DNA of 64,000 nucleotides from positions 15,188-79,187 of IMG/VR virus record IMGVR_UViG_3300025085_000010; one strand, written 5' to 3'. Below, in pieces: positions 15,932 through 63,156 of this stretch (the stretch's first letter is position 1; the number at the start of each line of letters is the position of its first letter). The notes beneath the pieces were generated by a model that saw nothing but the letters and a program-made list of their open reading frames with translations, did no database searches and had not been told where the DNA came from. The position numbers and the translations under genes were made by a program. Source of the stretch: a virus.

Positions 15932-16930
15932 ATGTTTGAGTATTTTTACAACGAAGTTTTGAGGAGGACCATTATATCTTTTGGTACTCTATTTAACAAC
16001 ATTTCGATTAAGCACGAAGATTCTTCGGATAACGTTGTTAGCGTTGTAAAAATTCCTCTGGCATATGGTCCTACTCAGAAATTTCTGGCAAGAATAAACC
16101 AGTCGCCAGATCTCAACAAGCCATTTGCCATCACTTTGCCAAGGATGTCATTTGAGTTTACTGGATTGACTTATGATCCTTCACGTAAGGTTTCTACAGT
16201 TCAAAACTTTACTATAAAAGATCCTAATGATGGATCTATTGTAAAAAAACAGTATATGCCTGTTCCTTACAATATGCAATTTGAGTTGGCAATCATGTCA
16301 AAATTAAATGATGATGCTCTTCAAATTATTGAACAAATCTTACCATACTTTCAACCAGCATATAATCTTACGGTTGAATTAGTAGAGTCAATTCAAGAGA
16401 AAAAAGATATTCCTGTGATATTAGAAAATATCACCATGCAAGATGATTATGAGGGAGATTTCACTTCTAGAAGAGTTCTTCTTTATACCCTAAGATTTAC
16501 GGCAAAAACATATCTGTTTGGTCCAGCAACTACTGCAACCAAGGATATCATCAAGAGGGCTTCTATCAGTTACCTCACTGGAACCGACACCTCCAACACC
16601 ACCAGAGAGGTTACTTACACAGCAACACCAAGAGCAACTCAAAATTATACTGGAGATGCTGCTACTACTCTCACAGCAGACATTACCAAGATAGCAAAAA
16701 CCTTTGAAGTTGCTGATGGTAGCACACTGACTGCTGAAACTTATATTAATATTGAGGGTGAGCAGATGTTCTTGAAATCTATCAGTGGAAATAATATCAC
16801 TGTTAGACGTGGAGAAGATAAAACAACGGCTACAATTCACCTCGGTGGAACAGAAATTCACGAAATCACTGCTGCTGATAATGCACTTATTGAATCAGGC
16901 GATAATTTTGGATTTGATGGTTCGTTCTGA
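15932..16930 (+). CDS. gp15: Tail sheath stabilizer/terminator gp15
   Basis: MFEYFYNEVLRRTIISFGTLFNNI, IPLAYGPTQKFLARI, LPRMSFE and QIIEQILPYFQP. Confidence 0.92.
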   Translation: MFEYFYNEVLRRTIISFGTLFNNISIKHEDSSDNVVSVVKIPLAYGPTQKFLARINQSPDLNKPFAITLPRMSFEFTGLTYDPSRKVSTVQNFTIKDPNDGSIVKKQYMPVPYNMQFELAIMSKLNDDALQIIEQILPYFQPAYNLTVELVESIQEKKDIPVILENITMQDDYEGDFTSRRVLLYTLRFTAKTYLFGPATTATKDIIKRASISYLTGTDTSNTTREVTYTATPRATQNYTGDAATTLTADITKIAKTFEVADGSTLTAETYINIEGEQMFLKSISGNNITVRRGEDKTTATIHLGGTEIHEITAADNALIESGDNFGFDGSF

Positions 16931-17358
16931 TGAAAATGACAAAAAACTTTGACGATCTAAATGACACATTCAATACCTCTGGTGACGTTATCAAACCAGA
17001 AGTTGTTGAAAGTAAAATTGAAAGAGTAAAAGAAGGTGTAGATGATATAAAAAAAGATTACGAATATACTAGAGGCAACTTATATTCGATTATAGAAAAA
17101 GGACAAGAAGCTCTTAATGGTGTTCTTGAACTTGCTCAAGAGAGTGAGATGCCTAGAGCGTATGAAGTCGCAGGTCAGTTGATCAAAAACGTTGCTGATG
17201 CAACTGATAAATTATTAGATCTTCAAAAGAAACTGAAAGACGTTGAAGCAGAAGAAAAGATTAAAGGACCATCTACAGTCAATAATGCTTTGTTTGTTGG
17301 ATCGACTGCAGATCTTGCAAAGATGTTAAAGGATGGACTGAAAGAAGATCCTAAATAA
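16930..17358 (+). CDS. gp16: Terminase small subunit gp16
   Basis: DYEYTRGNLY...PRAYEVAGQLIK...NNALFVGSTADL. Confidence 0.92.
   Translation: MKMTKNFDDLNDTFNTSGDVIKPEVVESKIERVKEGVDDIKKDYEYTRGNLYSIIEKGQEALNGVLELAQESEMPRAYEVAGQLIKNVADATDKLLDLQKKLKDVEAEEKIKGPSTVNNALFVGSTADLAKMLKDGLKEDPK
17351..17357 (+). promoter_or_regulatory. Late promoter (CTAAATA) followed by a TCGGGA/TCCCGA hairpin
   Basis: Motif at the end of gp16; hairpin at 17361-17378. Confidence 0.55.
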
Positions 17359-17399: not shown

Positions 17400-19838
17400 A
17401 TGTCGAAAGAAGACTTGCCTTCTATTGATGATTTGGTCAATAACGATCTACCATCAATTGAAGATTTTATAACAGAAGAGAACGCAGAGGAACTCCCTTC
17501 TGTTGAAGACTATATTGAGTTAGAAGAAAGCACTCAAACCATAGAAGATGCAGACGGAAATACATTTGCAGAAATACAAGATATAATACCACCTTGGCCA
17601 GAACTGGTCAGAATGATTAATGATGTTAGATCAGATATTCCTGACATTCCAGAAGTAAAATATTATGATAAAGAACTTGAGGAACTTGCAGAACAGATTA
17701 GTAATCTTCCTGAAGTCAGATACTATGATAGAGAAGTAGAAGCAATATGTGATCAGGTAGATCTTGTAAGGGAACAGATCAAAGTTCTACCTGAGGTCAA
17801 GTATTATGATGAGCAAGTTGATGCTATTGAAGATAGAATTGACACTCTTCAAACTGAGGTAACAAACTTACCAGAGGTCAAATATTATGATGCTGAGATC
17901 GCAGCAATTTGTGAGGCTATTGATACGGTAAAAGCATCTATTCCACAGTTTCCTAAGTGGGTTAATGAAATAAATGAAGTTCCAGACTTCTCATGGATTG
18001 GTAAAACTTTTAGTGTTATTGATGATGACTTTGTAAAGGTTAACGATACTATTGAAGGACTAAGAGGAAAGGTTGAATTTGATCTTGAACAACTTTCTGA
18101 AGATGTTGAAACAAAGCATTTTAATAGCACGATCAAGATTGAGAATGACATCTCCAATCTGAGTGAAAAAGTAGATACTCGTATTGATGAAGAGAAAGAT
18201 AAGATCTGGAAAGAACTCAGATCATCATCTCTCAAGATGTGGGAGTACCATAAAGAGTTTAAAGACGATGATCGCAAACTCAAGAAACAAATTCTTGGGG
18301 AATATAATACTCTCAAGCAAAACATTAATAAAGAACTTAAGGAGATTAATTACACCAGCACCAAGACTGATGAGTTACTTCTAAAGTATTTTACTGAGCT
18401 AAGAGAAGAGATCTCAGGACTTCCAGAAGTTAAGTATTATGATAAAGATATTGACTATGTAAAATCTGATATCAAAGGACTCTATAAAATTATAGAGGAA
18501 ATTAAATCATCTCAAAAACAACTGAAAGAAGAGCAAGAACTCCTAGCAGAGACAAATGTTCCTCTTGGGATGGACTCCCCAGATACAAATAATCCAGACC
18601 CTCTTACGCCACTTGATCAGAACTTTGTTACTCTGGATCAGTTGCAGACACACTACAAGAGATTTGTAGAGAGGGTACAGTATCAACTCGGATCTATCGG
18701 TGGCGGTGGTGCAGGATTTATTAGAGATCTTGATGATGTAACCTTTGATGCTACAGATGGTCAGTTACTGATCTATAACTCATCTACATCAAAATGGGTT
18801 GGTATTGCCAGCACTGCAGTTGGTGGTGGAGATGCATCTACATTAGCAGAAAATACAACAGGAACGAACCTTGTACTTTCAGGAAATTTAACAGTTGCAG
18901 GTATTGCAACATATGAAGATGTAAGAAATATAGATTCTATCGGTATTGTTACTGCAAGAAGTGGAATTAAAGTTCTAGATGGTGGCATCAACGTAGTTGG
19001 TGTTTCCACGATTAGCACTGGTGTTGGTACAATTCATGTTGGTGTTGGATCGACAGCACTTTTGGTTGAAGGTGATGCAAGAGTAACTGGTATCCTTACA
19101 ATTGGACAAGGATCAATTACTTTAGATCCAAACACAAAACAAGTCACTGGTATTGATGAAATCGTTGTTGGATCTGGAGCATCTTTATCATTAGCACCTC
19201 TATTCGCCAGTTCAGCCAAGTTTGTTATTGATTATTCTTCATTAACTTTACAAGGATATAACTCAAATAATGAAGGAACTTATGAAAGGCAAAGCACTTC
19301 TTTTGTACTAAGCACTGCACCAACTACATCTGGTAGTGCTAGATTCCAAGAGACAAGTGGATTTTATTACTTCTTACATGAAAGTGATAATTCAAAAATA
19401 ATTATTTTCAATATAGTTACTGGAAACTGGGACGCAGTTCATAGTTTTGGATCTGATTTTTCTTCTCCAAGTAGTGGGACACTAGTAAATCCAGTATCAA
19501 ATTATTCTTTTGTTACTCCAGTTAGAGCTAATTTTGATGACACTGGCAGAGCATATCCAGGATCTGGTTTTGGAGTTGTATATAAAACGACAGTTAGTGA
19601 GCAAACACAATCTATTGGTATTGCAACTGCAAGTTCTTTAGTTGTATCTGGTATTGCAACTGTTTCAACGGCATTCTATATGCCACAATACACAACATCG
19701 GCAAGAGATGCAGCTACCTTTGCTGAAGGTGCGATGATATACAATACAACAACTAAGAAAATGGAGTTCTATAATGGATCATCCTGGCAGTCGTTGCCTG
19801 GAATGTCGCTTGGTCTTACTGTGGCACTTGATGGATGA
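17400..19838 (+). CDS. Coiled-coil/fibre-like virion protein with PEVKYYD repeats
   Basis: Five (L/I)PEV(K/R)YYD repeats within a heptad-rich region, a GGGGAG hinge, then a G/S/T-rich fibre-like C-terminus ending GAMIYNTTTKKMEFYNGSSW. Confidence 0.7.
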   Translation: MSKEDLPSIDDLVNNDLPSIEDFITEENAEELPSVEDYIELEESTQTIEDADGNTFAEIQDIIPPWPELVRMINDVRSDIPDIPEVKYYDKELEELAEQISNLPEVRYYDREVEAICDQVDLVREQIKVLPEVKYYDEQVDAIEDRIDTLQTEVTNLPEVKYYDAEIAAICEAIDTVKASIPQFPKWVNEINEVPDFSWIGKTFSVIDDDFVKVNDTIEGLRGKVEFDLEQLSEDVETKHFNSTIKIENDISNLSEKVDTRIDEEKDKIWKELRSSSLKMWEYHKEFKDDDRKLKKQILGEYNTLKQNINKELKEINYTSTKTDELLLKYFTELREEISGLPEVKYYDKDIDYVKSDIKGLYKIIEEIKSSQKQLKEEQELLAETNVPLGMDSPDTNNPDPLTPLDQNFVTLDQLQTHYKRFVERVQYQLGSIGGGGAGFIRDLDDVTFDATDGQLLIYNSSTSKWVGIASTAVGGGDASTLAENTTGTNLVLSGNLTVAGIATYEDVRNIDSIGIVTARSGIKVLDGGINVVGVSTISTGVGTIHVGVGSTALLVEGDARVTGILTIGQGSITLDPNTKQVTGIDEIVVGSGASLSLAPLFASSAKFVIDYSSLTLQGYNSNNEGTYERQSTSFVLSTAPTTSGSARFQETSGFYYFLHESDNSKIIIFNIVTGNWDAVHSFGSDFSSPSSGTLVNPVSNYSFVTPVRANFDDTGRAYPGSGFGVVYKTTVSEQTQSIGIATASSLVVSGIATVSTAFYMPQYTTSARDAATFAEGAMIYNTTTKKMEFYNGSSWQSLPGMSLGLTVALDG

Positions 19839-19844
19839 TAAATA
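19838..19844 (+). promoter_or_regulatory. Late promoter (ATAAATA)
   Basis: Directly upstream of the AAGGAG RBS of the 592 aa ORF. Confidence 0.65.
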
Positions 19845-19866
19845 ATAAGGAGTAATCACTCTTTTG

Positions 19867-21642
19867 ATGGCTAAGAACGGACGCTGCCCTGCAGGACAAT
19901 ACTACTGTTATACTGATAAAGTATGCAAACCAATTCCTAAGGGATTTAGGGTTGTAGGACCTTCTGGAATGCTTCGTAAAGAAAATGGTCATTCTGTGGA
20001 TGACAATACCGAAACCAAAAAGAATGGTAACGGTAATGGAAATGGTAATGGTAATGGTGGAGGAGTAAGTGAATCGAAAAGTGGTGATTCTTCTCTGCGT
20101 GACTGGTTTGGCAAGAGTAAGTCTAGTGATGGCAAGCCTGGTTGGGTTCAACTGGGTGGGAAATACTCTGGAAAACCTTGTGCCAAGCAACCAGGACAAA
20201 CCACAAAGCCAAAGTGCGGTTCTTCAAAAATGAAACGCAATCTCTCTAAAGATGAGGAACAAGCAGCGTTTCGTAGAAAGAATAAAAAAGATCCAAATCC
20301 AAATAGATCAGGGAAGGCAATTAACGTGAATACTGAAGAATTTACAACACTACCTTTACAGATAGAAATCCCAGATAATATTAGAGATTTCAATCTTGGA
20401 CTTATGTTCCGTGAAAGTTTGGATATAAACAGTGGTATGCTCTTTATTTTTAATGAAGTGGCAGACCAGTCATTTCATATGACTGAAACAAAAATTCCTC
20501 TTGATATTGCTTTTATTAGAGAGGATGGCATAATCGAAAGTATTAAACAATTAGAACCATATGACGAGAACCCAGTTGCCTCAGATGGAGAGGTTCTGTG
20601 TGCATTAGAAGTAAATCGTGGATGGTTCGCGGAAAATAATGTAGAAGTGGGTGACGTGATTGATATTGAGGAAGGCGAGAAAGATGCTTGCTACCATAAA
20701 GTCAAATCACGTTATAAAGTTTGGCCAAGTGCATATGCGTCAGGAGCACTAGTCAAATGTCGTAAGAAAGGTGCTGCTAATTGGGGTAATAGCACAAAGA
20801 AGGAAGAAACTGAAATTAAAGAGAGTCACAAGAATCCTGAAAGTGTGAAAGGTATTGCCAAGGAACTTGATAAGGCTGTCGAGATGCACAAGAGTCAGGC
20901 AAAAAGACTCAGAAAATCTGGTGTATCTGAAGCATGTTGGAAAGGTTATGAAAAGAAAGGTATGAAGACCATGTTTGGAAAGAGATATCCAAACTGTGTT
21001 AAGAAAACCAAGAAAGAAGAAGTTGAACTTATTGATGAAAAGAAAGGATGCAACCACACTCATGAAGGTAAAGACTGTCCTGTTCATGGAATGTCTCCAT
21101 GTGATGGACCTCAAGGTGGAAATGGAGGAAAACCAGGTCCAGATAAAAATTATGTAAAACCTATGGGCGAATCCATAGATGAGGCAGTTAGAGTTCCAGC
21201 AAAGACTGGAAACATCATCGATACTTATTTCAACTATAGAGGTAAGTATTATGCTTTAAAGATGTTCTTCCCTCAAATCTCAGTACCCAAAAAATCTGAT
21301 GTTCAAGATCAGGTTTCTAAAGTATATCCTGGCGCGAAACTATTAACTTTTAACGTTTCAAGCTATGTACCAGGGCAACCACTCCTTCACGTCGAAGGAG
21401 CAGCATGGACGAAAAAATCAGGAAAAAATAAAGAAGGTGGACTCAACGAAAAAGGACGAAAGTCTTATGAAGCGCAAAATCCAGGATCTGACCTTAAAGC
21501 ACCAAGCAAGAAGGTTGGAAATCCCAGGAGGGCATCCTTCTGCGCTAGAATGAAGGGAATGAAAAAGAAACTGACTTCATCGAAAACTGCAAACGATCCA
21601 GATAGCAGAATCAATAAGTCACTTAGAAAGTGGAATTGCTGA
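19867..21642 (+). CDS. Modular K-rich late protein with an internal DUF192-like domain; putative head-internal polyprotein
   Basis: ATG at 19867 after AAGGAG. GLMFRESL...GMLFIF...FHMTETKIPLDIAFI...ALEVNRG is the DUF192 signature. The other modules are short, basic and Cys-containing. Confidence 0.75.
   Translation: MAKNGRCPAGQYYCYTDKVCKPIPKGFRVVGPSGMLRKENGHSVDDNTETKKNGNGNGNGNGNGGGVSESKSGDSSLRDWFGKSKSSDGKPGWVQLGGKYSGKPCAKQPGQTTKPKCGSSKMKRNLSKDEEQAAFRRKNKKDPNPNRSGKAINVNTEEFTTLPLQIEIPDNIRDFNLGLMFRESLDINSGMLFIFNEVADQSFHMTETKIPLDIAFIREDGIIESIKQLEPYDENPVASDGEVLCALEVNRGWFAENNVEVGDVIDIEEGEKDACYHKVKSRYKVWPSAYASGALVKCRKKGAANWGNSTKKEETEIKESHKNPESVKGIAKELDKAVEMHKSQAKRLRKSGVSEACWKGYEKKGMKTMFGKRYPNCVKKTKKEEVELIDEKKGCNHTHEGKDCPVHGMSPCDGPQGGNGGKPGPDKNYVKPMGESIDEAVRVPAKTGNIIDTYFNYRGKYYALKMFFPQISVPKKSDVQDQVSKVYPGAKLLTFNVSSYVPGQPLLHVEGAAWTKKSGKNKEGGLNEKGRKSYEAQNPGSDLKAPSKKVGNPRRASFCARMKGMKKKLTSSKTANDPDSRINKSLRKWNC
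20023..20058 (+). repeat. Low-complexity (Asn-Gly)6 coding repeat
   Basis: aatggtaacggtaatggaaatggtaatggtaatggt encodes an NGNGNGNGNGNG linker. Confidence 0.85.
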
Positions 21643-28200: not shown

Positions 28201-28410
28201 ATGGATGACCTTTTAGATATGATTATTGCGGATGAGTCACCATCTCAAATCAGTGATGCACTTAAAGATGTTCTTTATGCAAAATCAGCTGAGAGAGTTG
28301 ATGCATTTCGCCCTATGGTAGCTAATGCTTCTTTTGGTGGAGAAGATATTGAAGTCGAAACCGAGATCGAAGTTGATGATGAATCTATTGAAACCACAGA
28401 TGGTGTCTGA
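28201..28410 (+). CDS. Small acidic protein, probable prohead core component
   Basis: Lies between gp20 and gp21 (the T4 gp67/68 position); acidic C-terminal tail. Confidence 0.6.
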   Translation: MDDLLDMIIADESPSQISDALKDVLYAKSAERVDAFRPMVANASFGGEDIEVETEIEVDDESIETTDGV

Positions 28411-28447: not shown

Positions 28448-28717
28448 ATGGCTACCAGAGCATTAGTACTTGGTAATGAGATTGCAGTTCCAACTGTAGC
28501 GGGATCAGCAACTTCTTTTACACAGGCAACTGTGATCAGAGTTGTTAATGTTTCTGGGAGCAGTGGAACCATCGGAGTATGTACCGTTGTTGGTGCTGCC
28601 ACTACTAACTTTATAACTGTTCCAGATGGAACTGTTGAATATGTTGAAAAAAAATCAACCGATGTTTGTTATGGTACAGGAACTTTAAGAGCTGCAAAAG
28701 TAGGATTCACAGGTTAA
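28448..28717 (+). CDS. Hypothetical small beta-rich virion protein
   Basis: 89 aa ORF under a late promoter within the head module. Confidence 0.65.
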   Translation: MATRALVLGNEIAVPTVAGSATSFTQATVIRVVNVSGSSGTIGVCTVVGAATTNFITVPDGTVEYVEKKSTDVCYGTGTLRAAKVGFTG

Positions 28718-28721
28718 TCAA

Positions 28722-29372
28722 ATGAAACTTATCAGGGAAGAAATAGAATCAGTAGAGTTTCTTGTCGAACAAAAGAACGGCAAGAAATCTATGTATATTG
28801 AGGGAGTTTTCCTTCAGGGTAACATCAAGAACCGTAATGGTCGTATGTATCCTATGGAAACTCTACGCCGTGAGGTTGGTCGTTATAATGAGTCGAATGT
28901 TCAGTCTGGTAGAGCACTCGGTGAACTTGGTCATCCTGATGGTCCTACCGTTAATCTCGATAGAGTCTCCCATAAAATCGTATCTCTGAAAGAGAGTGGA
29001 TCCAACTTTGTTGGAAAAGCAAAGATTTTAAATACACCTATGGGTAAAATTGCATCTGCTTTGATAGAAGATGGCGTAAAACTCGGTGTTTCATCTCGTG
29101 GTATTGGTTCATTAAAGCAGACCCGTGAGGGTGTTAACATAGTCGGTGACGATTTTATGTTAGCAACTGCTGCTGATATCGTTGCTGATCCTTCTGCACC
29201 TGATGCTTTCGTTGAAGGCATTATGGAAGGTAAGGATTGGGTATGGGATGGAGGCATTCTTCGTGAGAAGTATGTAGAAAAAACTTACAGAGAAATCAAC
29301 ACTCTTGTAACTCAGAAACAACTTGACGAGAAAAAGTTAAATTTATTTAATGATTTCCTTGCGAATCTTTAG
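28722..29372 (+). CDS. gp21: Prohead protease gp21
   Basis: MKLIREE, NRNGRMYP, ALGELGHP, GVSSRGIGS and DIVADPSAPDAFV. Confidence 0.97.
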   Translation: MKLIREEIESVEFLVEQKNGKKSMYIEGVFLQGNIKNRNGRMYPMETLRREVGRYNESNVQSGRALGELGHPDGPTVNLDRVSHKIVSLKESGSNFVGKAKILNTPMGKIASALIEDGVKLGVSSRGIGSLKQTREGVNIVGDDFMLATAADIVADPSAPDAFVEGIMEGKDWVWDGGILREKYVEKTYREINTLVTQKQLDEKKLNLFNDFLANL

Positions 29373-30569: not shown

Positions 30570-31964
30570 ATGTTCCAATCTGAACATCTGCAGGAAAAGT
30601 GGGCACCTCTCCTCAATCATGAGGGTCTTGATTCAATCAAAGACAATCACAAGAGAGCAGTGACCGCAGTCCTGTTAGAAAACCAAGAAAAATTCCTCCG
30701 TGAGCAATCCTCCTTCGAGCAAGGTGGAATGCTTACTGAGCAACCAACCAACCAAGTAGGAAACGGTGGATTCACCGGTTCCGCAACCGCAACAGGACCT
30801 GTTGCTGGTTTCGACCCCGTACTGATCTCCTTGATCAGACGCTCCATGCCTAACTTGGTCGCATATGACCTGGCTGGCGTCCAACCTATGAGTGGACCTA
30901 CTGGACTCATCTTCGCGATGCGTTCCCGCTACACCAACCAGTCTGGCACCGAAGCATTCTTCGATGAAGCAGATACCGCATTCTCTGGACAACCTAAGGG
31001 TCTTGATGATGCTAATGGTTTCAGTGGTGCTGCTGCTGGTTTAGGTACTACTTCACAGACAGGTACTAACCCTTCAGTCCTTAACCCAACCGGTAGTGCA
31101 GATAAGACTGCATACAACGTCGGTCAGGGTATGCGTACCGACTCCGCCGAATCACTCGACGGAACAGGTGCTAACGCATTCAACCAGATGGCATTCTCGA
31201 TCGAGAAAGTCACTGTAACCGCTAAGTCCAGAGCACTCAAAGCAGAGTACTCCTTGGAACTGGCACAAGACCTTAAGGCAATCCACGGTCTGAACGCTGA
31301 AGCAGAACTTGCTAACATCCTCTCTACTGAAATCCTTGCGGAAATCAACAGAGAAGTCATCAGAACCATCTATAAGGTTGCTGAACCAGGTGCTGCTGCT
31401 AACACCGCTACTGCTGGTGAGTTTGACCTGGACATCGACTCCAACGGACGTTGGTCTGTTGAGAAGTTCAAGGGTCTTCTTTTCCAAATCGAGAGAGATG
31501 CGAACGCAATCGCACAAAGAACTCGTCGCGGGAAGGGCAACATCATCATGTGTTCTGCTGACGTAGCGTCTGCACTGACCATGGCTGGTGTGCTCGATTA
31601 CACCCCTGCACTCAACGCTAACCTGAACGTTGATGACACCGGTAACACCTTCGCTGGTGTTCTCCAAGGTAAGTATCGTGTATACATCGATCCTTATTCG
31701 GCAAACGTCGCTGCTAACCAATACTACGTTGTTGGTTACAAAGGTTCTTCACCTTACGACGCAGGTATGTTCTACTGCCCATACGTTCCCCTTCAGATGG
31801 TTCGTGCCGTTGGCGAGAACAGCTTCCAACCAAAAATTGGATTCAAGACCCGCTACGGTATCATCGCAAACCCATTTGCACAGGGTACTTCCCAGGGATC
31901 TGGTGCTCTTACGAGCAACAGCAACCGCTACTACCGTCGCGTTACTGTCAAGAACCTTATGTGA
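30570..31964 (+). CDS. gp23: Major capsid protein gp23
   Basis: LISLIRRSMPNLVAYD, GVQPMSGPTGLIFAMR, SRALKAEYS, FYCPYVPL and FQPKIGFKTRYG. Confidence 0.99.
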   Translation: MFQSEHLQEKWAPLLNHEGLDSIKDNHKRAVTAVLLENQEKFLREQSSFEQGGMLTEQPTNQVGNGGFTGSATATGPVAGFDPVLISLIRRSMPNLVAYDLAGVQPMSGPTGLIFAMRSRYTNQSGTEAFFDEADTAFSGQPKGLDDANGFSGAAAGLGTTSQTGTNPSVLNPTGSADKTAYNVGQGMRTDSAESLDGTGANAFNQMAFSIEKVTVTAKSRALKAEYSLELAQDLKAIHGLNAEAELANILSTEILAEINREVIRTIYKVAEPGAAANTATAGEFDLDIDSNGRWSVEKFKGLLFQIERDANAIAQRTRRGKGNIIMCSADVASALTMAGVLDYTPALNANLNVDDTGNTFAGVLQGKYRVYIDPYSANVAANQYYVVGYKGSSPYDAGMFYCPYVPLQMVRAVGENSFQPKIGFKTRYGIIANPFAQGTSQGSGALTSNSNRYYRRVTVKNLM

Positions 31965-61932: not shown

Positions 61933-63156
61933 ATGAAAAGTTTCTTTCAGTTCCTGAATGAGGCTCAGTCGCAAGCAAGTATGCAAGCGAGAAAACTGAA
62001 CCTTGTAAGTGATGGCCACGGTGGTTGGTTAGATTCCCGTGGTAAATTTGTTGCGACTACTGAAGATGGTAAGTTAAAATTTGCAGATAAGAAGAAAAAG
62101 AAAGCAGAAGATGACAAACCTGCACAACAAAAAACAACACAATCAGAACCTGAAGCAAAGACTAAGAAACCTGCAACTCAAACGACTGGCGCGAAGAAAG
62201 CAGAAGCAGGTGAAGGAGATCAAACTTCTGGGGAGACTACAGAAACTCTGACTGTTACATTTGGTCGTTTCAATCCACCAACTGTTGGACACGGAAAACT
62301 CCTTGCCGCAGCCCAAAAGGCAGCACAGGGTGAAGATATGAAGATCTATCCATCACGATCGCAGGATGCTAAGAAGAATCCACTAGATCCTGATATGAAG
62401 GTTTCATTTATGAAGAAGATGTTCCCTGATTATTCTGAGAACATTATTAATGATGATGAGATGAAGTCAATCTTTAATGTATTGGTTGCAGCAGATGAGG
62501 CAGGATATAAGAACGTCAATATTATTGTAGGATCAGATCGTCAGGCAGAATTTGAGAACCTAGCAACCAAGTATAATGGTGAACTCTATAACTTTGACAA
62601 CATTCGTGTCATCTCTGCTGGTGTAAGGGATTCTGATGCAGAAGGTGTTGAAGGAATGTCTGCATCCAAGATGAGAAAAGCAGTCATGGATGATGACTAT
62701 GATTCATTCCGTAGAGGAACACCAAAAGAATTAAATGATGGTGATACCAAGGCACTGTTTAATGCAGTTCGTCAGGGTATGGGTTCTAAGAAGAAAAAAG
62801 AAGTTGCTGAGATGTGGGAGATTGCTCCTGAAATTGATCCGAAGGGGTTACGTGACAACTATGTATCTGGCAATATCTTTAATCTTGGTGATGTTGTAGA
62901 GAATTTAAATACTGGTCTGATTGGTAAGATTGTTCGCCGTGGAACAAACCATCTTATCTGTGTGACACAAGAGAACTATATGTTCAAGTCCTGGATTCGT
63001 GATGTTATGGAAGCAGTTGTGAATTATTCAGGTCCATCTGGGGTTCCATCAAACCAGAGAGAGGTTGGAACTGATGCAAATCGTAACTATACGATGAGAA
63101 TGACCGGCACGGCTGGTATTAAAAATTTAATAAATAAGTATAAGATTAAAAAGTAA
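61933..63156 (+). CDS. HIGH-superfamily (cytidylyltransferase-like) nucleotidyltransferase
   Basis: TFGRFNPPTVGH, IIVGSDR and MSASKMR. Confidence 0.85.
   Translation: MKSFFQFLNEAQSQASMQARKLNLVSDGHGGWLDSRGKFVATTEDGKLKFADKKKKKAEDDKPAQQKTTQSEPEAKTKKPATQTTGAKKAEAGEGDQTSGETTETLTVTFGRFNPPTVGHGKLLAAAQKAAQGEDMKIYPSRSQDAKKNPLDPDMKVSFMKKMFPDYSENIINDDEMKSIFNVLVAADEAGYKNVNIIVGSDRQAEFENLATKYNGELYNFDNIRVISAGVRDSDAEGVEGMSASKMRKAVMDDDYDSFRRGTPKELNDGDTKALFNAVRQGMGSKKKKEVAEMWEIAPEIDPKGLRDNYVSGNIFNLGDVVENLNTGLIGKIVRRGTNHLICVTQENYMFKSWIRDVMEAVVNYSGPSGVPSNQREVGTDANRNYTMRMTGTAGIKNLINKYKIKK
63130..63136 (+). promoter_or_regulatory. Late promoter (ATAAATA)
   Basis: Within the 3' end of the NTase gene, 32 nt upstream of ATG 63169. 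Confidence 0.5.

What the first reader, a model, noticed from the sequence alone, without database searches (positions are those of the whole stretch)
19867..21642. Putative protease-processed head-cargo polyprotein: basic modules joined by gp21-type sites
Seen: the late-promoter-driven 592 aa ORF is a string of about nine unrelated modules. These are a Cys3 N-module with NG linker, a basic SLRDWF...KPC...PKC module, a DUF192-like domain, KDACYHKVK...KCRKKG, a short helix, ACWKGY...PNCVK, CNHTH...CPVHG, a beta-rich module and a C-terminal WTKKSG...SFCARM...KWNC module. Most boundaries end in a hydrophobic-x-Glu tripeptide (ORF-track numbering): VSE70, IEE270, IKE320, VSE356, IDE392, IDE440, plus the weaker TEE159 and HVE511. 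Established: T4 prohead protease gp21 cuts after Glu in (I/L)xE, and gp21 is encoded at 28722. Inference: the protein is built into the prohead core, cut into small basic Cys-rich peptides and possibly ejected with the DNA, making it a shufflable delivery cassette.
Basis: partly seen in the sequence, partly recalled or inferred. Interest (0 to 1): 0.82.

Follow-up and report, generated by a model that had tools for sequence, protein, structure and literature searches.

The report
Modular head-cargo polyprotein of a cyanophage
A late gene of a T4-like marine cyanophage encodes a chain of nine small, mostly basic modules; the joints carry the head protease's cutting motif, so the protein is probably packed into the capsid and cut into separate pieces, though no experiment has shown this.

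Summary
The ORF is real: 591 aa from the ATG at 19867, between terminase genes g16 and g17 of a T4-like cyanomyovirus.

- **Modules:** the nine modules are confirmed. In 150 diverse relatives they occur in many orders and subsets.
- **Motif count:** the count of [ILV]xE in this one protein is not significant (9 vs 6.0±2.2, P=0.125).
- **Motif position:** position is significant. Hydrophobic-x-Glu ends 0-2 residues before 57% of module starts, against 5.8% background. Asp shows no enrichment.
- **Individual sites:** E355, E439 and E510 are invariant in 121 close relatives while neighbouring residues vary. IKE319 is not conserved. TEE158 and HVE510 are non-canonical.
- **Protease context:** the phage encodes gp21 (Peptidase_S77). 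Its gp23 has LTE aligned to T4's LTE65|A66 cleavage site.
- **Virion evidence:** homologues were detected in purified virions of S-SM1 and S-SCSM1.
- **Targeting tag:** 61 of 72 relatives of a family member (P0252), 55 of them flanked by g16 and g17, begin MKTF(S/Q)(Q/E)F(L/I)xE|A, close to T4's capsid-targeting sequence MKTYQEFIAE. This protein and its close relatives lack that tag.

Cleavage, head location and ejection remain untested. I class it as a new variant of the T4 internal-protein system. The scan noted the same kind of gene before on other genomes.

The parts
19838..19844 (+). Late-promoter-like box ATAAATA (GATAAATA, one mismatch to T4 TATAAATA), 23 nt before the ATG
   Evidence: All 16 ATAAATA in the window are on the + strand, and several lie 30-45 nt upstream of g18, g22 and the two small head genes. 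The total count is not above chance.
19847..19852 (+). Shine-Dalgarno AAGGAG
19867..21642 (+). ORF of 591 aa, 65 kDa, pI 9.4; member of cyanophage gene cluster T4-GC119 / PHROG 727
19867..20073 (+). M1 (aa 1-69): Cys3 beta module plus Asn-Gly repeat linker, ending in VSE69
   Evidence: The site is present as [VMI]SE or [VI]DE|A in the 121 close relatives.
20074..20340 (+). M2 (aa 70-158): basic SLRDWF...PC...PKC module, pI 10.1, ending in TEE158 (non-canonical)
   Evidence: Many relatives start exactly here (MA|NKSGD, MNE|SKSGD). Stand-alone viral look-alikes of 77-86 aa exist, as a lead only.
20341..20673 (+). M3 (aa 159-269): DUF192 domain, acidic (pI 4.1), ending in IEE269
   Evidence: Pfam E=8e-25. 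Foldseek matches 3pjy and 3m7a with TM 0.66-0.75.
20674..20823 (+). M4 (aa 270-319): KDACYHKVK...WPSAYASGALVKCRK helical module. IKE319 at its end is NOT conserved.
   Evidence: E319 kept in 6 of 121.
20824..20931 (+). M5 (aa 320-355): variable helical spacer ending in VSE355; Phi-x-E is invariant here in 121 of 121 relatives
20932..21039 (+). M6 (aa 356-391): ACWKGY...PNCVK beta-hairpin module ending in IDE391
21040..21183 (+). M7 (aa 392-439): Cys/His cluster CNHTH..C..H..C plus disordered linker, ending in IDE439 (E invariant, hydrophobic P3 in 118 of 121)
21184..21396 (+). M8 (aa 440-510): beta-rich module (pLDDT 82-89) ending in HVE510 (E invariant, P3 is His/Gln)
   Evidence: In 34 distinct contexts the residue before M8 is always E, and P3 is V/L/I/F/M in 97%.
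21397..21639 (+). M9 (aa 511-591): DUF6321, very basic (pI 10.5), with a Cys pair
   Evidence: Pfam E=2e-21. Stand-alone 81-84 aa versions in a cyanopodovirus, a pelagiphage and phage MinM2 start MAK(T/S)PAW at the same point and have no Phi-x-E.
28722..29372 (+). gp21 prohead protease, the proposed processing enzyme
   Evidence: PHROG 207 E=7.5e-84; Pfam Peptidase_S77 E=4e-36.
30732..30740 (+). LTE55-57 of gp23, aligned with T4 gp23 LTE63-65, the site cut by gp21
   Evidence: alignment to PDB 6uzc/7vrt. The mature T4 chain has 456 of 521 residues.
61933..61962 (+). MKSFFQFLNE, a T4-type capsid-targeting sequence at the N-terminus of the 407-aa cytidylyltransferase-like protein (T4-GC190). It suggests this phage keeps the T4 head-loading tag.
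   Evidence: The T4 CTS is MKTYQEFIAE (PMC8442874). T4-GC190 was detected in S-SM1 virions.

Best explanation
The gene encodes a late-made precursor that is taken into the prohead. There the gp21 protease probably cuts it after Glu in hydrophobic-x-Glu joints. The best-supported joints are E69, E269, E355, E391 and E439, and probably E510; E158 is uncertain and E319 is doubtful. Cutting would release six to eight small proteins of about 4-13 kDa. Most of these are strongly basic and would stay with the packaged DNA, as T4 internal proteins IPI-III do. They may then enter the host with the DNA. The modules are independent units that phages exchange, reorder, lose or encode as separate small genes. 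Shown here: modularity and shuffling; conservation and Glu-specificity of the joint motif; presence of gp21 and of a T4-like gp23 site; a T4-type capsid-targeting tag on family members in the same genome slot. Taken from papers: homologues are present in purified virions. Inferred: head-internal location, the cleavage itself, DNA binding, ejection, and what any module does.
For: (1) Modules M1-M9 occur in more than 50 different orders and subsets among 271 family members. (2) [ILVMF]xE ends 0-2 residues before 307 of 538 module starts in 150 representatives clustered at 50% identity. The background is 5.8%, giving 9.8-fold enrichment. No other P1 residue is enriched (Asp 1.0-fold), which matches T4, where Asp at P1 blocks processing. 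(3) E355, E439 and E510 are invariant in 121 close relatives, and P3 at E355 and E439 is almost always hydrophobic, while P2 and P4 vary freely (ELDE, LLGE, MLGE, EIGE; KVDE, PMGE, SIEE...). That is the signature of a short linear motif. (4) The joints lie in AlphaFold low-confidence linkers, whereas the non-junction sites E219, E224 and E528 lie inside folded parts. (5) Stand-alone DUF6321 proteins begin at the module boundary and lack the motif, so the motif is not part of the fold. (6) gp21 is present, and gp23 LTE aligns with the T4 cleavage site. (7) The S-SM1 homologue SSM1_115 (T4-GC119) gave 13 peptide counts in purified virions. The S-SCSM1 full-length homologue ORF29 is annotated 'virion protein' from mass spectrometry. 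(8) 61 of 72 complete relatives of family member P0252 start MKxFxxF[ILVF]xE, e.g. MKTFQEFILE|A, which matches T4 MKTYQEFIAE at 8 of 10 positions; 55 of these relatives are flanked by g16 and g17. (9) Seven of the nine modules have pI 9.2-10.5.
Against: This protein and its 120 closest relatives have no capsid-targeting sequence (0 of 121), so its route into the prohead is unexplained. The motif count in this protein alone is not significant. Linkers are Glu-rich, which raises the chance of x-x-E. IKE319 is not conserved; TEE158 and HVE510 lack a hydrophobic P3. In most relatives without DUF192 the direct M2-M4 joint is KKGKGS|G, with no site. The neighbouring genes in the g16-g17 region are fibre-like, so virion detection could reflect a tail or fibre location. 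Paired cysteines suggest disulfides, as in externally exposed proteins. The homologue was not detected in S-PM2 virions. No peptide-level data show neo-termini.
Confidence: 0.6

Rival explanations
1. The protein is an uncut, multi-domain virion accessory protein, for instance a flexible beads-on-a-string component attached to fibres, neck or capsid surface. On this view the hydrophobic-x-Glu joints are simply a feature of acidic inter-domain linkers.
For: The gene follows a fibre-like 812-aa gene here, and lies among tail-fibre genes in S-SCSM1. Cys pairs in most modules would fit disulfide-stabilised external domains. Virion proteomes do not reveal location or size. The query has no CTS.
Against: Free reordering and loss of modules is unusual for an architectural protein. 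The motif is specific for Glu over Asp and fixed in register just before unrelated modules. The modules exist as separate ~80-aa genes in other phages. Same-slot relatives carry a T4-type head-targeting tag.
Confidence: 0.2
2. The protein is loaded and cut by gp21 but serves head assembly or DNA packing rather than delivery. It would be a basic counter-ion or core component whose pieces neutralise DNA or are expelled like scaffold fragments, with no role in the host.
For: It is strongly basic overall (K+R 105 vs D+E 73). T4 gp22, gp67 and gp68 are cut at many sites and mostly leave the head, and T4 IPIII affects head assembly (PMC9026906). Several predicted products are only 4-5 kDa.
Against: The content is extremely variable and shuffled, and the gene is absent from some cyanophages (listed NP in Syn9). 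That argues against an essential assembly role and looks more like accessory, fast-evolving cargo. A folded DUF192 domain and a Cys/His cluster are hard to explain as mere counter-ions.
Confidence: 0.12
3. The protein is a cytoplasmic non-virion protein, the proteome detections are carry-over, and the junction motif is a by-product of Glu-rich linker composition and shared ancestry.
For: The within-protein count is not significant. The authors of the S-SCSM1 study themselves warn that some detected proteins may be carry-over. The enrichment test uses related sequences, which are not independent.
Against: There are two independent proteomes on different phages. The gene has a late-type promoter and lies in the structural block. 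Glu-specific enrichment is 9.8-fold while Asp shows none, although Asp is also common in the linkers. Same-slot relatives carry a CTS.
Confidence: 0.06

Closest known systems
[quoted passage not shown]
   Same: The host phage is T4-like, with gp20-gp67/68-like-gp21-gp22-gp23 in T4 order. The products are small and basic. The junctions have Glu at P1 and a hydrophobic residue at P3. Asp is not used at P1. Family members in the same slot begin with a near-identical CTS (MKTFQEFILE|A). The content is variable and non-essential-looking, as in the T4 IP locus.
   Different: In T4 each IP is a separate gene cut once. Here up to nine unrelated modules are strung in one ORF with a site at most joints, making it a polyprotein. 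The gene lies between g16 and g17, not at the T4 ip loci. No sequence similarity to IPI-III was found. This particular protein has no CTS.
Inner-body and ejection proteins of giant phages phiKZ, 201phi2-1 and SPN3US, cut by gp21-like proteases (PMC5694885, PMC9026906)
   Same: Head-internal proteins are cut after Glu at several sites per protein by a T4 gp21 homologue, and some are ejected into the host.
   Different: The motif there is S/A/G-x-E or A-x-E with a small P3 residue, not a hydrophobic one. Cleavage there removes long propeptides rather than separating a chain of independent modules. There is no homology.
Cyanophage gene cluster T4-GC119 / PHROG 727, 'DUF6321 domain-containing protein' (Sullivan et al. 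2010, PMC3037559)
   Same: This ORF is a member. It matches SSM1_115 in three segments of 54-87% identity and PHROG 727 at E=6e-158. The cluster is listed as a virion 'structural protein' of variable size (276-2985 nt).
   Different: In the parts of that paper searched here, the cluster appears as a hypothetical or structural protein within a mobile cassette. No mention of modularity, protease sites or head targeting was found there. A full-text search for 'capsid targeting sequence' plus 'cyanophage' found only a T4 review.
Viral polyproteins cut by a virus-encoded protease (e.g. picornavirus, retrovirus Gag)
   Same: One ORF holds several functional units separated by short protease recognition sites, and cutting is coupled to particle maturation.
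   Different: The virus class, protease and purpose all differ. This is an analogy only.

Membership tests
T4-type head-internal cargo (CTS / gp21 system) | Encoded by a phage with a gp21 (Peptidase_S77) prohead protease and a T4-type head gene block | tested here: met
   g20, two small genes, g21, g22 (T4_CASP) and g23 in T4 order.
T4-type head-internal cargo (CTS / gp21 system) | N-terminal capsid-targeting sequence of the MKTYQEFIAE type | tested here: not met
   The query starts MAKNGRCPAG..., and 0 of 121 close relatives carry the tag. It is met in more distant same-slot family members: 61 of 72 begin MKxFxxF[ILVF]xE.
T4-type head-internal cargo (CTS / gp21 system) | Cleavage after Glu in hydrophobic-x-Glu by gp21 | tested here: inconclusive
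   The motif is present, conserved, Glu-specific and located in disordered linkers. Actual cleavage cannot be tested with these tools.
T4-type head-internal cargo (CTS / gp21 system) | Protein present in mature virions, inside the head | tested here: inconclusive
   Homologues were detected in S-SM1 and S-SCSM1 virions. Their location within the particle is unknown, and the homologue was not detected in S-PM2.
T4-type head-internal cargo (CTS / gp21 system) | Small basic mature products | tested here: met
   The predicted products are 4-13 kDa, and seven of nine modules have pI 9.2-10.5.
T4-type head-internal cargo (CTS / gp21 system) | Ejection into the host with the DNA | not testable with these tools
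   Inference by analogy with T4 IPs only.
Pfam DUF192 (PF02643) | HMM match above the gathering score, and the DUF192 fold | tested here: met
   87.2 bits against a cut-off of 27. Foldseek match to 3pjy: E=1.7e-8, TM 0.75.
Pfam DUF6321 (PF19846) | HMM match above the gathering score | tested here: met
   77.1 bits against a cut-off of 28.5, covering 1-72 of 72 profile positions.
Cyanophage cluster T4-GC119 (Sullivan 2010) | Sequence similarity to SSM1_115 and position next to g16 | tested here: met
   tblastn E=4e-46, 4e-39 and 1e-30 on L001 23816-25021.
phiKZ-type inner-body proteins | S/A/G-x-E cleavage motif and homology to inner-body protein families | tested here: not met
   P3 here is V/L/I/M/F. 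No similarity to such proteins appeared in the Pfam, PHROG or fold searches.

The most novel reading that the evidence does not exclude
T4-like cyanophages carry a combinatorial 'cargo cassette'. Each module would be a separate injected effector, for example an anti-defence or host-takeover factor or a DNA-protecting protein. The modules are made as one polyprotein, loaded into the head, and released by gp21 at portable Phi-x-E or CTS-like joints. Phages would then build new injected cocktails simply by shuffling modules at the joints. The same tag also loads enzymes such as the cytidylyltransferase-like T4-GC190.
Probability: 0.3. Interest if true: 0.85.

Novelty: new variant of a known kind. 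Interest (0 to 1): 0.7.

Why it matters
T4-like cyanophages are among the most abundant viruses in the ocean, and this family is very large: 18,859 cluster representatives at E<=0.001. If the reading is right, these phages package and probably inject a variable set of small proteins whose functions are unknown. They would generate that variety by shuffling modules between protease sites. That would give a concrete list of candidate injected effectors for Synechococcus and Prochlorococcus infection. It would extend the T4 capsid-targeting and gp21 paradigm from single-gene internal proteins to polyproteins. It would also explain why enzymes such as the cytidylyltransferase-like protein turn up in virion proteomes. 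The idea can be tested directly on cultured phages with existing methods.

Tried and rejected
- **Chance test on this protein alone:** [ILV]xE 9 vs 5.97±2.2 (P=0.125) and [IL]xE 7 vs 3.6 (P=0.055). The count by itself proves nothing, so the argument had to rest on comparative data.
- **Motif as part of the module folds:** rejected for DUF6321, because stand-alone versions lack the motif. Rejected for M6-M8, because the sites lie in low-pLDDT linkers 6-10 residues before the first strand.
- **Pfam on the other seven modules:** nothing at E<=1.
- **Fold searches:** Foldseek against the PDB found only the DUF192 fold. BFVD returned only unnamed, 'DUF6321' or 'virion protein' relatives.
- **ESM Atlas on M8 and M2:** only unnamed small viral proteins, with a weak DUF5872 lead for M2.
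- **Literature:** 'DUF6321' gave 0 papers. 'DUF192' with 'phage' gave nothing relevant. 'Capsid targeting sequence' with 'cyanophage' gave only a T4 review.
- **Paralogues in the same genome record:** none found, but the record is a 79-kb fragment, about 37% complete.
- Genomic context was obtained with the search for related loci instead.
- **Exact T4 late promoter:** TATAAATA is not present upstream; only ATAAATA is.
Full report
**What is there**

Window 19867-21642 (+) is an open frame of 591 aa. Homologues begin MAKNG..., so the ATG is the likely start. Upstream lie an AAGGAG ribosome-binding site and ATAAATA at 19838-19844. ATAAATA is one base short of the T4 late box TATAAATA.

The window belongs to a T4-like cyanomyovirus. 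The gene order is:
- g16 at 16930-17358
- a fibre-like 812-aa gene at 17400-19838
- this ORF
- g17, g18, g19, g20
- two small head genes
- g21 at 28722-29372 (Peptidase_S77)
- g22 and g23

The closest cultured relatives are Synechococcus phages SynMITS9220M01, S-SM2 and Bellamy.

**Are the modules real?**

Yes. Pfam finds DUF192 (165-267) and DUF6321 (519-589). PHROG families match separate pieces: 76-150, 266-392, 351-392 and 506-591.

A full HMMER scan of 1.84 billion cluster representatives gave 18,859 hits at E<=0.001. The local matches start and stop at about 69/70, 158/159, 269/270, 315-320, 352-356, 390-392, 436-440 and 509-511. I built an HMM for each of nine modules, M1-M9, and scanned 271 family members. 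The modules occur in more than 50 architectures, including reordered ones such as M2-M6-M4-M9, M6-M2-M4-M8-M9 and M9-M2-M4.

AlphaFold2 (mean pLDDT 63.6) gives small folded units separated by low-confidence linkers at 41-78, 150-159, 310-331, 346-354 and 382-445. The DUF192 part matches PDB 3pjy and 3m7a with TM 0.66-0.75. No other module has a named relative.

**Is the hydrophobic-x-Glu pattern more than chance?**

Within this one protein it is not: 9 [ILV]xE against 5.97±2.2 in shuffles, P=0.125. Comparison with relatives changes the picture.

- **Diverse representatives.** In 150 representatives, [ILVMF]xE ends 0-2 residues before 307 of 538 module starts. The background is 5.8%, so the enrichment is 9.8-fold. 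None of the other 19 residues at the last position is enriched more than 2-fold, and Asp is at 1.0-fold even though the linkers are acidic.
- **By module.** Before M8 the residue is Glu in all 34 distinct contexts, and P3 is V/L/I/F/M in 97%. Before M6, M7 and M9 Glu is at -1 in 58-75% of contexts. Before M2 it is at -2 in 75%.
- **Close relatives.** In the 121 close relatives E355, E439 and E510 are invariant while P2 and P4 vary freely (ELDE, LLGE, MLGE, EIGE...). E69, E269 and E391 are kept as hydrophobic-x-Glu in nearly all of them, some with a one- or two-residue shift in register.
- **Sites that do not hold.** IKE319 is kept in only 6 of 121. TEE158 and HVE510 keep the Glu but have Thr/Lys or His/Gln at P3. 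In most relatives without DUF192 the direct M2-M4 joint is KKGKGS|G, with no site.
- **Caveat.** These sequences are related, so the counts are not independent events. The variety of flanking contexts argues against simple inheritance.

**Is the motif part of the folds?**

Probably not. The junction sites lie in the low-confidence linkers. The three non-junction sites (E219 and E224 in DUF192 strands, E528 in a DUF6321 helix) lie inside folded parts. Stand-alone DUF6321 proteins start MAK(T/S)PAW at the position where M9 starts (GAAW) and carry no hydrophobic-x-Glu. I checked three of these:
- 84 aa, next to the capsid gene of the T7-like cyanopodovirus P-SCSP1c
- 83 aa, in pelagiphage Lederberg
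- 81 aa, in phage MinM2

Many family members that lack M1 start exactly at the M2 boundary, as MA|NKSGD or with a mini-leader such as MNE|SKSGD or MALNE|NKSGD.

**Link to the head protease**

The phage has a gp21 homologue. Its gp23 reads GGMLTE|QPT, and that LTE aligns with T4 gp23 FLTE65|A66. The mature T4 chain in the PDB has 456 of 521 residues, so 65 residues are removed.

In T4, CTS residues 8 and 10 (P3 and P1) control processing, and Asp at P1 blocks it (PMC9026906). This fits the Glu-not-Asp specificity found here.

**Link to the virion**

The S-SM1 homologue is SSM1_115, cluster T4-GC119. Table S8 of Sullivan et al. 2010 (PMC3037559) lists T4-GC119 as detected in purified S-SM1 virions with 13 peptide counts, as present but not detected in S-PM2, and as absent from Syn9.

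S-SCSM1 ORF29 aligns over the full length at 43% identity and has the same Cys-rich N-terminus. It is annotated 'virion protein' in a genome whose paper marked proteins found by virion mass spectrometry (PMC9602691). Neither study gives the protein's size in the particle or its location there.

**Link to head targeting**

Family member P0252 shares M2, M4 and M8 with this protein (E=1e-65 to it). It has 80 relatives in IMG/VR contigs. Of the 72 with a complete 5' end, 61 begin MKxFxxF[ILVF]xE, and 55 lie between g16 and g17.

Typical N-termini are MKTFSQFLLE|ATDPKG and MKTFQEFILE|ASCN. The second matches the T4 capsid-targeting sequence MKTYQEFIAE at 8 of 10 positions (PMC8442874). In these proteins each later module is again preceded by hydrophobic-x-Glu.

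Other members carry CTS-like tags inside the chain (KSFKSFIDE|A, KTFDQFVSE|S, ISFQQFQE|K) or a second portable tag, S(D/N)WRxE(L/I)xE|, placed before different modules.

This window itself holds a protein with such an N-terminus. The cytidylyltransferase-like T4-GC190 at 61933-63156 starts MKSFFQFLNE|AQ. Homologues in P-SSM4, S-RIM2 and ACG-2014f start MKKFSAFLKE|A, MKKFSAFLTE|A and MRSFLTFLTE|A. T4-GC190 gave 25 counts in S-SM1 virions. T4-like cyanophages therefore appear to keep the T4 tag-and-cut loading system.

**What does not fit**

- The ORF under study and its 120 closest relatives have no such tag. How they would enter the prohead is open. Possible routes are the Cys3 module M1 or plain charge attraction to the very acidic scaffold, and both are pure inference.
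- The neighbouring genes are fibre-like.
- Paired cysteines in most modules would also suit an externally exposed protein.
- No peptide-level data are available.

**Most likely mechanism**

The protein would be made late, taken into the prohead core and cut by gp21 at E69, E269, E355, E391, E439 and probably E510. This would release:
- M1 (7 kDa)
- M2, possibly still joined to DUF192
- DUF192 (12.6 kDa, acidic)
- M4 plus M5 (9.6 kDa)
- M6 (4.3 kDa)
- M7 (5.0 kDa)
- M8 (8.0 kDa)
- DUF6321 (8.9 kDa, pI 10.5)

The basic pieces would stay with the DNA and may be ejected, as T4 IPs are. I put about 0.6 on loading plus gp21 cutting. Virion association alone is considerably more likely. Ejection and effector function are much less certain.

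**Comparison and novelty**

It works like the T4 internal proteins with their CTS and gp21. It also resembles, more loosely, the multiply-cut inner-body proteins of phiKZ-type phages, whose motif has a small rather than hydrophobic P3 (PMC5694885).

It is a member of cluster T4-GC119 and carries DUF192 and DUF6321. It fails one defining T4-IP feature, the N-terminal CTS, although its family meets it.

What is new relative to T4 is the polyprotein layout with a site at most joints and free module shuffling. I found no paper describing this. The scan has noted the same kind of gene on other cyanophage genomes, with similar conclusions.

**Verdict**

I class it as a new variant of a known kind, with interest 0.7.

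Noticed in passing
window 61933-63156 (+): The 407-aa cytidylyltransferase-like protein (cluster T4-GC190) starts MKSFFQFLNE|AQ, a close match to the T4 capsid-targeting sequence MKTYQEFIAE. The tag is conserved in P-SSM4, S-RIM2 and ACG-2014f homologues, and the S-SM1 homologue was found in virions (25 counts). This enzyme is probably a head-packaged protein.
   Followed up: partly
window 17400-19838 (+): An 812-aa protein lies between g16 and the ORF. It has PHROG tail-fibre matches, mainly at the C-terminal 70 residues, and weak coiled-coil-type Pfam hits (baculovirus PEP/P10). It is a fibre-like gene in the hyperplastic g16-g17 region.
   Followed up: no
window 30732-30740 (+), gp23 residues 55-57: The LTE in gp23 aligns exactly with T4 gp23 LTE63-65, the gp21 maturation site. 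This predicts a 57-residue propeptide for this phage's major capsid protein.
   Followed up: partly
whole window; e.g. 23558, 28168, 28416, 29377, 52375: All 16 copies of ATAAATA lie on the + strand. Several sit 30-45 nt upstream of late genes (g18, the two small head genes, g22). The total number is no higher than in shuffled sequence.
   Followed up: no
L002:1402-1656 (Prochlorococcus podovirus P-SCSP1c): A stand-alone 84-aa DUF6321 gene sits directly after the major capsid gene and before the tail tube genes of a T7-like phage. From general knowledge, not checked here, T7-like phages have no gp21-type protease. The small basic protein may therefore be a virion component in podoviruses too.
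   Followed up: no
L012:2249-4438 and relatives L013-L019: These are 669-731-aa variants of the g16-g17 gene that start MDKLTFKEW instead of the CTS. They carry extra modules, including a YCxKC...EC Cys cluster and a long basic insert between M2 and M4. Most modules are again preceded by hydrophobic-x-Glu.
   Followed up: no
BFVD hit A0A218MMM0_2: A 947-aa 'cytidyltransferase-like domain-containing protein' from an uncultured virus aligns with part of the model (E=1.7e-8). This hints that the cytidylyltransferase and these modules are fused in some viruses.
   Followed up: no
window 28201-28410 and 28448-28717 (+): Two small ORFs lie between g20 and g21, where T4 has gp67 and gp68. The first is very acidic with an IEVETEIEVDDESIE tail. 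Neither has a Pfam match; both match PHROGs of unknown function.
   Followed up: no
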